A stretch of 64,000 nt of DNA. Source: Stylophora pistillata (lineage: Eukaryota). Where the stretch lies: the NCBI RefSeq assembly GCF_002571385.2, contig NW_019218308.1, positions 69,620-133,619 on the forward strand. Direction: 5' to 3'. A model generated the notes under the pieces. It saw only the letters and a program-made list of their open reading frames with translations, had not been told where the DNA came from and did not search any database. Shown here one piece after another: positions 16,763-19,700 of the stretch (within the stretch, counting starts at the first letter, position 1; every line of letters starts with the position of its first letter). Position numbers and translations under genes: made by a program.

Positions 16763-19700
16763 TTACGAAGAATGTTTGTTAGGATTAGGATTGATTTTTT
16801 TTGAAAGCCAGTCAAAAAAAAAATTTAAAATCGACAGTATGAAATACGAAATACAAACAAGGTAATTCCAGCCTAACTTCAAGAAGCCCAGGATACTCGT
16901 CAATAGGATAGCACGCAACCAAACACAAATACTCTGTGGTTGCACACAGTAAGAGATCCCTCCGTTAGCTTGAGCGACAAATGTAATATTCGCAAAAGGT
17001 CTAAATTTCCAATCGTTCGATAAGCAACGAACAGTTGCTTCCGACGGCTGCCAGCTGTGATCCCAGACCTTCACATATTCTTCCTCATAAGAGATTCGTC
17101 CAAAACGCATGACTGTTTCCAGCAGAACGGTACCTTCGAGAAAGTCCGGTCGGGAGTCTGGCCCTAAGATTAGATTAAAAACATCTGTAGATAAATAAAA
17201 ATAAACCTTGCTGAGGATTTCCGACTTGGATTGATGCTAAGGAGATGGGGTTAGGATTATGCAATAGAATTCGGGTACAGTAATAGCACTTAAGGCTTCA
17301 CTTGAAGCCGTATTTCCTGGGGATCGTGCTTAGAAATAGGGACTCAAGGCTAGCTTAGAACTTAGAGGTTGTGTTGGAGAACTTAACACTTAGGACCTCG
17401 TGTTTGGAGCTTAGAATGGTAGACTGGAAAGGAGGTGAAAGAGAGTTTTGTACCAGAGTATTTTGTCGTAACTTTGTATCATAAGACGTCCCGAATTAGA
17501 AACAGCAATAACAAATGGTGGTTAGCATTCAGTGTCATAAGCATGAATTATGGAAGGTATATTTTAACAATAGTTCAACATATAAAAAGAGAGTGGAATA
17601 TTTCTTAAAGCAGCTACTCTATGATATATTTCAAAAAATTGTTTCCGCTGGGTTTTTGGCGTTATCTTCAGTAATAATAGTTTATCAGTTATAGATATGC
17701 TTGCTTCTCATCACGGTGAGTAGAAAGTTAAACATACATTTCAGATAAATAGTCAATCTGAACTTAACCATTTTTCTAATAAGTTAGAGTGCCTCTTTAA
17801 TAAGGGTGCTGATCCTCTAAGAAATAGTTTTACTTCCAGAATTGGATTCCTGGAGCAAAATTGTGGACTCACTTTTTCCTTCTTTCTGACCAGTATGCCT
17901 TCTGCGGGTTCCTGGAGGAGGTTCTTTGTAATCATAAATATCACCCTAGAGGATAAATAACATTAACCTTCATCAAATTTGAATGAAGAAGGAAAAATAG
18001 TGGAATAAACAAAAGAATAATGAATAAGTGGAGCAAAGGATGAGTTGGATGAGCAAATATAGGAATACTGGCTGAACATGTTGTAGAGGGTCTAAATGCA
18101 TGTACTCAGTGTTTTAGCAAACCTATATACAATTGAACTCACATTGAATAGACACCAGTGAATTGACGTGATGCCTCATCAATTCACCAGTGAATTGATG
18201 TGTGTAATTCAATGCCTCATCCTGAATAGTCACCCAAGGAGTAGCTAGTTAAAACTTGCCCTCTTTGGTGCATGTCCCAAAGTTGTCGATTTCTAATTAC
18301 CTCAAAGTATTGAAATTTTGAAAATATGCAAATATCCAAAGAGCAATGAAGTATGCGGACTAGAATCAACGAGTAAAATAACATACGAATTTCGATCTCA
18401 TCGTTTTCCGGCAATGGTTACGTTCTTTTCTCAATATTAAAGTAGCGTTTTGAGCCATGTGCCTGAGGATTATAGATTAGCACAAATTAGTGCAAAAATA
18501 CACAAATTTTGATCAGTTCCTACAGAAGGACAGAAGAACAGAAGAAGTCAAACAATTAGAATCCTTTTGGCAACGTAGAAAATGTGGTACACTCAGCTGC
18601 GCCTCGTGTGCCTCTGTTTAGCAGTCATCGGTTATTGATCCCTGACCAAATGCATTGTAGCATGGGATACAATGGTAAAATAGATCCAAGTGAAAGAAAA
18701 ACTCATGGAAGTTTCTCATACCTCCATTCCTGATGGTGGTTCTGGGTTTAGCTTTGGTTGTGGCTTTACCTGTGGCTTTGGTTGTGGCTTTGGTTGTGGC
18801 TTTGGTTGTGGCTGGTATGCGAACTTCTCTCCTGTTTTGCTTGGATCAAAGTGATGCAGCAATGCTTGCGCGTGGATTTTCCTGTATTTCATGTCCCAGG
18901 AAAAGACAAAGCTCTGTCTTCCGTCAAGATATTCCTCCCCGAACTGCGAAGCCACTTTTCTCCGTGCCCAGCGCGAGATCACAGATCTGTCTTCCTCGTC
19001 TGAATCTTTGTAGTTGTTGTCTCCACTAATGACTATCAAAACCTTGCCTCCTTGGATAACAAAATAAATGAAATATGATGAAAACCGTTTAGTGTGACTA
19101 AAATCACGTAATTTTACTTAAAAACACACCATTATACCTATCAGATAATTACATCTGACTAACGCAATACCCTCAAACCTGATTTGAATGTCTTTACAAT
19201 CGAAAATAAAGTATAATTTTCTGTTAAAAAAATTATCAGTTTTAAACTGAGAAAAAGTTATCCCAGGGGCAGTCCTAGATTCTTCTAAGACTGACTGTTT
19301 TATGAAACTACAGATGGGAGACACTTCCCTCCCTCTCCAGCACACACATTGAGTAATTTAGCTAAATGGCTTTGTAAATAAGTCAGGGTGTGATTAAATC
19401 TCTGAATGAAAATTGCACAAGATTTGAAAAACACCATCAAGTCCGTGGTAAGTCTTTCTCTGATTGACGCTGTACCCTCAAGCCTGATTTAGATGGCCTT
19501 AGGAAAAATAACCAATGATTCCCAGAATAAAACAATGGAAATTATCTCCATAGCCTTAAAATTGTGGAGAGATACCTATTAAGGACTTTTCAAGATCATA
19601 AGAAAAATCTAAATGTCTGATTTTACTTTCACAGCCTTTACGTATGATCGTTGCTATACCGAGTTTTCTCAGTGGAAGAAATTTAATAATCTCCACGAAC

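What the first reader, a model, noticed from the sequence alone, without database searches (positions are those of the whole stretch)
18440..18560. Gene 4 is a chimera with a visible junction in intron 2; 5' and 3' halves are shuffled across the array
To the right of ~18500, gene 4 intron 2 matches gene 3 (ATACAC.AATTTTGAT..GTTCCTAC, 13245). To the left it matches gene 5 intron 2 (AGTAGCGTTTTGA.CCA.GTGC...GATTAGCACAAAT, 25510). Genes 1, 3 and 4 share one exon 1-2 clade but have three different 3' halves. Genes 4, 5 and 7 share a last-exon type. Genes 6 and 7 share the exon 2 end but differ downstream, and gene 6 exon 3 resembles gene 8 exon 3. The conserved phase-0 intron 2 makes any combination in frame, giving combinatorial diversification.
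Basis: seen in the sequence. Interest (0 to 1): 0.72.

Follow-up and report, generated by a model that had tools for sequence, protein, structure and literature searches.

The report
Duplication-born hybrid gene in coral array
A coral gene carries the front half of one neighbour and the back half of the other, joined inside an intron and spliced in frame, likely from one old tandem duplication, in an undescribed family predicted to be membrane-tethered, GTPase-shaped proteins without GTP-binding motifs whose halves were swapped at least three times in this array.

Summary
The window is a Stylophora pistillata array. Gene 4 (minus strand, 16763-20547) switches parentage at 18498-18500 in intron 2: gene-3-like to the right, gene-5-like to the left. 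Blocks 13245-18500 and 18498-25570 are collinear copies about 0.15-0.27 substitutions per site apart. That is the layout of one anti-Lepore-type tandem duplication, but the parental introns share no detectable homology, only a 3-base overlap. Contigs of other samples span the junction, and RNA is spliced across it, so it is not an assembly chimera. Trees of the two halves disagree (AU p 4.5e-7 to 0.016). Genes 1 and 6 are also intron-2 hybrids, and a Pocillopora gene model is an intron-1 hybrid. 'Combinatorial diversification' is overstated. These are a few old events, nothing shows programmed or proven ongoing shuffling, and phase 0 is not special. The family has no Pfam match. It has a predicted small-GTPase-like fold lacking the G1/G4 motifs, a 70-residue domain without clear fold match, and a likely membrane anchor. 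Known mechanism, undescribed family.

The parts
18498..18500 (-). Junction in gene 4 intron 2; 3-base overlap (ATA on +) that fits both gene 3 (13245) and gene 5 (25568-25570)
   Evidence: spanned by contigs of other samples
20247..20547 (-). Gene 4 exon 1 (type A, gene-3 lineage); first half of the predicted GTPase-like domain
18722..19050 (-). Gene 4 exon 2 (type A); second half of the domain plus Pro/Gln/Lys repeat
17946..18721 (-). Gene 4 intron 2, phase 0, 776 bases: about 224 bases gene-3-like, about 555 bases gene-5-like
17873..17945 (-). Gene 4 exon 3 (type B, gene-5 lineage), linker; donor as used in RNA
16763..17163 (-). Gene 4 exon 4 (type B): 70-residue C-domain and hydrophobic tail
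13245..18500 (.). Duplication unit 1: gene 3 5' half, spacer, gene 4 3' half
18498..25570 (.). Duplication unit 2: gene 4 5' half, spacer with high-copy repeats, gene 5 3' half
12135..15166 (-). Gene 3 (A/A/A), donor of gene 4's 5' half; exons 14866-15166, 13672-13976, 13007 or 13019-13085, 12135-12520
   Evidence: LOC111341862
24048..26939 (-). Gene 5 (B/B/B), donor of gene 4's 3' half; exons 26639-26939, 25588-25910, 24911-25022, 24048-24358; its tail is short
   Evidence: P0011, LOC111341860, 100%
1631..5715 (-). Gene 1 (A/A/D hybrid, junction in intron 2 at or left of 3994); C-domain present twice
   Evidence: (P0005, 100%)
9672..9968 (-). Gene 2: a lone type-D exon 1, followed downstream by repeats and a 306-N gap
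28186..31388 (-). Gene 6 (B/B/E hybrid, junction in intron 2 between 29615 and 29753)
   Evidence: (P0243)
32885..36535 (-). Gene 7 (B/B/B)
37255..39545 (+). Gene 8 (E/E/E), nearest relative in the window of gene 6's 3' half
20231..20325 (-). 95 bases identical between gene 4 and gene 3 (14850-14944), likely a conversion tract

Best explanation
Gene 4 is a real, spliced hybrid with the promoter side and exons 1-2 of the gene-3 lineage and exons 3-4 of the gene-5 lineage, likely made by one old tandem duplication whose two breakpoints fell in intron 2 of the neighbouring genes. Shown: the order gene 5 > gene 4 > gene 3 in the direction of transcription, two collinear copies of the unit, an intact frame, splicing across the hybrid intron, and conflicting trees. 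Inferred: the event was a microhomology-mediated repair or replication template switch rather than a crossover in homologous sequence, because the parental introns are unrelated and overlap by only 3 bases; later gene conversion left identical tracts among genes 1, 3 and 4. Genes 1 and 6, and a Pocillopora model, likely arose from separate events of the same kind. Inferred function: exons 1-2 encode a domain predicted to have a small-GTPase-like fold without the P-loop or NKxD motif, so it would act as a nucleotide-free binding module. Exons 3-4 encode a flexible linker, a small fast-evolving domain and a membrane anchor. A swap at intron 2 would therefore give the B-type C-domain and anchor to an A-type N-domain under A-type regulation. 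I put a role as a membrane-tethered innate-immune adaptor at about 45%, from its neighbours and fusions only.
For: Eleven same-strand, collinear matches between 13245-18500 and 18498-25570, including a stretch of the upstream spacer (15554-15626 vs 20935-21007). Neutral divergence overlaps on the two sides. Gene 4/3: dS 0.17 (0.09-0.27), non-coding JC 0.14, 0.19, 0.26. Gene 4/5: dS 0.27 (0.13-0.48), non-coding JC 0.21, 0.26. The opposite pairings are at dS 1.3 or saturated. The junction is spanned by contigs in 3 of the 4 runs: X1 and X7 16907-18800 with 0 and 1 differences, X8 18442-18786; a low-depth piece of X12 (18310-18750) spans it too. X14 shows an allele with 8 differences in 391 bases. 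Intron 2 of gene 4 is spliced in 3 of 4 RNA runs (X21 2 reads, X24 4 reads, X14 contig; none in X17). AU tests reject gene 4 with type A in the C-domain (p 0.0155) and with type B in exon 1 (0.011) and exon 2 (0.0073). Both parental types exist whole in relatives: P0007 A/A/A; P0008 and P0247 (Pocillopora) B/B/B. Gene 4's 3' half is sister to gene 5 (93/93), and grouping it with Pocillopora P0004 is rejected (p 0.017). dN/dS is 0.42 and 0.48 on the two halves. N-domain model pLDDT mostly above 85; best structural matches are GTPases, Z 10.8, rmsd 3.4, 141 aligned; 0 of 37 aligned members have GxxxxGK[ST] or [NT]KxD. Of 62 proteins of 290-470 residues, 47 have a hydrophobic stretch, a Cys-rich end or a strict CaaX-like end.
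Against: No long reads, and no whole genome was held. X1 matches the window almost exactly and may be the same clone. Gene 4/3 divergence is higher in the 5' flank (p 0.27 +/- 0.055) than in intron 1 (0.16-0.20) and intron 2 (0.15), and three-way informative sites change partner along the gene, so the 5' half is itself a mosaic and a single clean event is a simplification. A gene 4 + P0004 exon 1 clade is not rejected (p 0.50). The lack of homology at the breakpoints could reflect later deletion. The fold call is middling: REC and TIR domains score Z 8.8-9.0, and Foldseek gave no clear family. No function was tested; the immune role rests on neighbours. The dS interval for the 3' half reaches down to dN (0.13), so constraint there is borderline.
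Confidence: 0.72

Rival explanations
1. One older hybrid: the ancestor of Stylophora and Pocillopora already had an A/B fusion, and later exchange moved the junction (intron 1 in Pocillopora P0004, intron 2 in gene 4).
For: P0004 has the same polarity, A in front and B behind. Gene 4's 5' flank is the most divergent part. Gene 4/3 exon 1 identity (86%) equals cross-genus identity (84-86%). A gene 4 + P0004 exon 1 clade is not rejected.
Against: Gene 4's 3' half is closer to gene 5 (75%) than to P0004 (65%), and grouping it with P0004 is rejected, p 0.017. Moving the junction into intron 2 would need an exchange ending in non-homologous sequence.
Confidence: 0.15
2. Classical unequal crossing-over (NAHR) between misaligned genes 3 and 5, or between repeats in their introns that have since eroded.
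For: The layout is exactly the anti-Lepore product. NAHR is the model proposed for coral tandem expansions (PMC12314368, passages).
Against: Gene 3 and gene 5 intron 2 share nothing above shuffles. The two genes were already far apart (dS 1.4), while everything copied in this event is still about 80% identical, so a homologous tract should still show.
Confidence: 0.08
3. An active, selected combinatorial system: halves are still being swapped among living colonies and the hybrids are kept by diversifying selection.
For: 3 of 7 complete genes are intron-2 hybrids; intron 2 is 43%, 29% and 13% of their intron length (post hoc product about 0.016). Several contigs from other samples look recombinant: an X8 contig joining 14158 to 19203, P0280 (gene 5 with gene 4's tail), P0251 (gene-1-like exon 1 on gene 3), P0031. 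Identical tracts of 95 and 94 bases exceed all 2000 permutations.
Against: The X8, P0280 and P0251 joins each sit at or next to a word of 30, 39 or 94 bases shared by the two paralogs, where short-read graphs misjoin. The RNA cross-joins (12 and 3 reads in X24) lie within the 95-base identical tract and cannot be assigned. dN/dS is under 1 in every pair tested. The permutation ignores exon constraint. The gene 4 junction is old and the same in every sample that covers it.
Confidence: 0.2
4. Assembly chimera.
For: The assembly has gaps and repeats nearby (306 N at 9191-9496).
Against: Both halves differ by about 20% from their donors. Contigs of other samples and studies cross the junction, one with a 2% divergent allele, and RNA is spliced across it.
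Confidence: 0.01

Closest known systems
Anti-Lepore HBB/HBD fusion genes (PMC4041002; abstract and outline read)
   Same: A hybrid between both intact parents, with its 5' part from the downstream gene and its 3' part from the upstream gene; fusions of one polarity arose repeatedly in separate lineages; conversion acts alongside.
   Different: The globin fusions come from unequal crossing-over between alignable genes and the parents are typically lost. Here the breakpoints are in unrelated intron sequence, both parents persist, and the swap exchanges whole domains.
Chimeric genes from tandem duplication in Drosophila yakuba (PMC5460883; abstract and outline read)
   Same: Tandem duplication with breakpoints inside genes shuffles exons and regulatory sequence.
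   Different: Those are duplications in a population sample; these are old events between paralogs of one family.
Hydractinia Alr family exon shuffling (10.1101/2022.03.04.482883; passages read)
   Same: A cnidarian gene cluster whose members show domain-level mosaics.
   Different: Alr genes encode extracellular Ig-domain allorecognition proteins. This family has no Ig domain or Pfam match and appears to be intracellular with a C-terminal anchor (inferred).
Class i pseudoGTPases such as p190RhoGAP pG1, CENP-M (PMC5593906; passages read)
   Same: GTPase-like fold with degraded G motifs (predicted here).
   Different: No sequence link; nucleotide binding untested; REC and TIR folds score only about 2 Z lower.
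Tandem arrays of coral genomes (PMC10236652, PMC12314368; passages read)
   Same: Pervasive tandem duplication of paralogs.
   Different: The passages seen treat whole-gene duplication and call gene conversion rare in corals. Here breakpoints inside genes made hybrids, and 94-95-base identical tracts suggest conversion.

Membership tests
Anti-Lepore-type fusion | Hybrid lies between both intact parental genes | tested here: met
   order gene 5, gene 4, gene 3
Anti-Lepore-type fusion | 5' part from the downstream parent, 3' part from the upstream parent, spacer duplicated | tested here: met
   only 73 bases of the spacer still align
Anti-Lepore-type fusion | Crossover inside homologous sequence | tested here: not met
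   gene 3 vs gene 5 intron 2 score 21, shuffle maximum 30; 3-base overlap
Functional chimeric gene | Open frame and transcript spliced across the junction | tested here: met
   367-residue frame; joints in X21, X24, X14
Functional chimeric gene | Purifying selection on both halves | tested here: inconclusive
   dN/dS 0.42 and 0.48; the 3' dS interval touches dN
Programmed or ongoing combinatorial diversification | New junctions among individuals or cells | tested here: inconclusive
   candidates checked against DNA join at shared words of 30 bases or more
PseudoGTPase (class i) | Small-GTPase fold | tested here: inconclusive
   best Z 10.8, rmsd 3.4, 141 aligned; nearly all top-50 rows are GTPases; REC 9.0, TIR 8.8
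PseudoGTPase (class i) | G1 and G4 motifs degraded | tested here: met
   0 of 37 with GxxxxGK[ST], 0 of 37 with [NT]KxD, 3 of 37 with DxxG in the window searched
PseudoGTPase (class i) | No nucleotide binding | not testable with these tools
   needs a binding assay
TIR domain | TIR fold or profile match | tested here: inconclusive
   RRS1 TIR Z 8.8, rmsd 3.7, 133 aligned; TIR-STING and SIGIRR TIR among weak Foldseek rows
IFI44-like GTPase (name recalled, from no call) | Intact P-loop | tested here: not met
   present in the neighbours at 43963-44304, absent from this family
IFI44-like GTPase (name recalled, from no call) | Common descent of the domain | tested here: inconclusive
   hhalign E 0.25 over 48 columns; a phase-1 intron falls in the same aligned column
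DUF4630 (PF15443) | Profile match | tested here: inconclusive
   ESM Atlas feature scores 0.88 and 0.85, family on 18% and 43% of cluster members; lead only

The most novel reading that the evidence does not exclude
An undescribed hexacoral family of membrane-tethered pseudoGTPase immune adaptors, derived from the neighbouring P-loop GTPases, that diversifies by repeatedly swapping its N-terminal module onto different C-domains and anchors, with new hybrids still segregating among colonies and a C-domain of a fold without a clear solved match.
Probability: 0.17. Interest if true: 0.75.

Novelty: new member of a known kind. Interest (0 to 1): 0.42.

Why it matters
The mechanism is textbook, but this is an unusually legible case: both parents, the duplicated unit, the junction base and the transcript are all visible. 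It shows that coral tandem arrays make new domain pairings and not only extra copies, and it hints at conversion where one coral genome paper calls it rare (PMC10236652, passages). It also puts an unnamed family of corals and anemones on the map, with a testable fold and natural swap constructs (genes 3, 4, 5) for asking which half sets location, partner and expression.

Tried and rejected
No whole genome was held, so the rest of the scaffold and other genes of the family could not be read as DNA. Pfam gave nothing for this family: exon-level pieces, the 39 members of A1 (best E 0.06), and no match for this domain in 25 further homologs, where the only hits were to fused or other parts. A profile search of PDB sequences gave one chance hit. 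A search with gene 5's 3' half returned only itself among 76 candidates. The C-domain model (pLDDT 88.7) had no Foldseek match at E 0.001 or better and best Z 4.8 among 48,161 chains, which shows neither a new fold nor a known one. The Atlas gave no usable hit for it. My first guess of a TIR domain lost to GTPase folds but is not excluded. I rejected the RNA joints gene 4 exon 1 > gene 3 exon 2 and the reverse as evidence of trans-splicing or a deletion allele, because they lie in the 95-base identical tract. I left as unresolved the X8 contig joining 14158 to 19203 (30 shared bases at the join, 31 with a poly-A variant seen in X14), P0280, P0251 and P0031. With the C-domain alone gene 6 could not be placed (p 0.43 and 0.46); the full 3' half placed it with gene 8. 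Rows dropped before the trees: 5 of 37 (partial or near-duplicate), and 2 more partial ones for the C-domain. The 3'-half tree used 13 chosen rows. Earlier findings of the scan: nothing in four look-ups. Literature: no paper held any of the locus ids or DUF4630, none held all of coral genome, tandem duplication, exon shuffling and immune, and searches listed nothing on this family by title or abstract start. No supplements were read, and gene lists there could hold these loci.

Full report
Setting. No genome was held. Homolog search identified the window as Stylophora pistillata: stored proteins P0005, P0011 and P0082 match my models of genes 1, 5 and 9 at 100%, and gene 3 is LOC111341862. The window holds seven complete four-exon paralogs (genes 1 and 3-8), a lone exon 1 (gene 2), a five-exon gene 9 and a decayed copy of gene 9's 3' part. 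Intron phases are 1, 0, 1 throughout. Gene 4 itself was not among the proteins returned.

Observation. Gene 4 intron 2 (17946-18721) is gene-3-like from 18498 rightwards (score 109, shuffle maximum 33) and gene-5-like from 18500 leftwards (183 vs 31). The two parental introns do not resemble each other (21 vs 30). Three bases fit both parents. The gene 5 breakpoint lies 17 bases from its exon 2 donor, so gene 4's intron is almost all of gene 5's intron plus the start of gene 3's.

Not an artefact. Contigs cross the junction in X1 and X7 (16907-18800; 0 and 1 differences), X8 (18442-18786) and X12 (18310-18750, low depth). An allele with 8 differences in 391 bases crosses it in X14. All three introns of gene 4 are spliced in X21 and X24, introns 2 and 3 in X14, and none in X17; RNA shows the intron 3 donor at 17872. 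These are short-read data; no long reads were on offer.

Anatomy of the event. Segments 13245-18500 and 18498-25570 align in eleven collinear same-strand pieces, from intron 2 through the 5' half, a remnant of spacer and the 3' half. In transcription order the array reads gene 5 (B/B/B), gene 4 (A/A/B), gene 3 (A/A/A), which is what a single duplication of 'B 3' half, spacer, A 5' half' produces. Divergence agrees on both sides: gene 4/3 dS 0.17 (0.09-0.27) and non-coding 0.14-0.26; gene 4/5 dS 0.27 (0.13-0.48) and non-coding 0.21-0.26. The crossed comparisons are at dS 1.3 or saturated. Because no homologous tract exists at the breakpoints, I infer microhomology-mediated repair or template switching rather than classical unequal crossing-over. 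Later exchange blurred the 5' halves: identical runs of 95 bases (genes 3/4) and 94 bases (genes 1/3) exceed 2000 permutations (which ignore exon constraint), and informative sites change partner along the gene.

Shuffling across the array. Trees used 32 rows for exons 1 and 2 and 30 for the C-domain, after dropping 5 and 7 of 37. They give stable types A, B, D and E. Gene 4 is A/A/B (rejections p 0.007-0.016). Gene 1 is A/A/D (C-domain with P0026 and P0042, 95/94; genes 1, 3, 4 and P0007 together rejected at 4.5e-7). Gene 6 is B/B/E (3' half with gene 8, 99/98; with B rejected at 0.0005), and a Logan protein, P0243, carries the same join. Whole parental types exist in relatives. Pocillopora verrucosa P0004 and P0246 are A/B/B, a hybrid in intron 1 (p 0.005 and 0.042). 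This rests on two versions of one RefSeq model; I saw no DNA, and tandem arrays are known to produce fused predictions (PMC10236652, passages). Gene 1's upstream region matches the gene 3/4 spacer, including sequence just 3' of gene 4 (6529-6751 vs 16527-16734). It may be a copy of that 5' unit dropped into a type-D gene whose exon 1 is gene 2; the 306-N gap leaves this open.

Frame is kept at any conserved intron, not only a phase-0 one. Three hybrids among seven genes, all in intron 2, is suggestive (post hoc about 0.016 by length) and fits selection for intact domains, but the events are old. Apparent fresh recombinants (an X8 contig, P0280, P0251, cross-gene RNA joints) all join at words of 30-95 bases shared by the paralogs and prove nothing either way. 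P0031 could not be checked against DNA.

The protein. Homologs are named from stony corals and sea anemones only among the named rows, and the family has no Pfam match. The model (mean pLDDT 80) has a 175-residue alpha/beta domain from exons 1-2, a disordered linker and a 70-residue domain. The first domain matches small and translational GTPases best (Z 10.8, rmsd 3.4, 141 aligned), ahead of REC (9.0) and TIR (8.8). None of 37 members has a P-loop or NKxD motif, which fits the definition of a pseudoGTPase (PMC5593906, passages). The neighbouring P-loop GTPases (IFI44-like by my recall) align weakly to the middle of the domain (E 0.25) and have a phase-1 intron in the same column; this is a lead only. 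The C-domain has no clear structural match. Of 62 near-full-length proteins, 47 end in a hydrophobic, Cys-rich or CaaX-like tail. Gene models in other corals fuse the N-domain to a GT4-conflict glycosyltransferase (P0027) or to the P-loop GTPase (P0029), and both kinds of gene lie in this window. IFI44 is among the antiviral-response genes of Nematostella (PMC13319465, passages). I therefore read the family as likely membrane-tethered binding adaptors, with an immune role at about 45%. A swap at intron 2 would pair one gene's regulation and N-domain with another's C-domain and anchor.

Comparison and verdict. It works like an anti-Lepore fusion (PMC4041002, abstract) and like duplication-born chimeras in Drosophila (PMC5460883, abstract), and domain mosaics are known in the cnidarian Alr cluster (10.1101/2022.03.04.482883, passages). 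It fails the homologous-crossover feature of the classical case. I found no paper naming these loci; supplements were not read. Verdict: real, well supported, a new member of a known kind, in a family worth naming. Interest 0.42; novel reading 17%, worth 0.75 if true.

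Noticed in passing
window 24048-24073 (gene 5 end) vs 16763-16893 (gene 4 end): Gene 5 has a short tail, while gene 4 keeps a long hydrophobic tail like Pocillopora P0004 and Oculina P0012, so the hybrid likely preserves the ancestral type-B anchor that gene 5 lost.
   Followed up: partly
window 24113-24362 vs 33094-33346: Genes 5 and 7 are closer in exon 4 (dS 0.24, 0.10-0.42) than in exons 1-2 (dS 0.65, 0.47-0.93) with unrelated introns, possibly an exon 4 conversion.
   Followed up: partly
window 1631-2292: Gene 1's last exon holds the C-domain and Cys-rich tail twice in tandem (1634-1950 vs 1976-2292, 88%), splice acceptor included.
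   Followed up: no
window 9988-10341 (-): An exon-2-like start lies upstream of gene 2's exon 1 and is cut by an 87-base piece of the 50-base repeat that forms an array at 6741-7210.
   Followed up: no
window 44778-48485 (+) and 57776-60661 (+): Gene 9 has five exons with a second, degenerate alpha/beta module before the C-domain. A frameshifted copy of its 3' part begins inside intron 2, with no N-domain exons in front and a GT4-conflict gene upstream on the same strand.
   Followed up: partly
window 55527-56657 (+): GT4-conflict glycosyltransferase (Pfam E 2.6e-35), apparently frameshifted near 56360; an Oculina model fuses this domain to the family's N-domain.
   Followed up: partly
window 40545-44304 (-) and 61776-64000 (-): Two paralogous P-loop GTPase genes, IFI44-like by recall, flank genes 9-10.
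   Followed up: partly
window 13007/13019 and 17873/17834; gene 6 exon 4: Alternative in-phase splice sites vary the linker: two exon 3 donors in gene 3 are both used in RNA, gene 4 uses the upstream donor, and P0124 and P0243 use a longer gene 6 exon 4.
   Followed up: partly
P0031 vs gene 8 (37255-39545): A Logan protein joins the exon 1 of another Stylophora paralog (P0028, P0272) to gene 8's exons 2-4; real intron-1 hybrid or graph artefact.
   Followed up: no
window 37759-38033; 20860-23700: A six-base tandem repeat fills gene 8 intron 1. High-copy repeats, with a stretch that looks like a reverse-transcriptase end (recalled), fill the gene 4/5 spacer.
   Followed up: no
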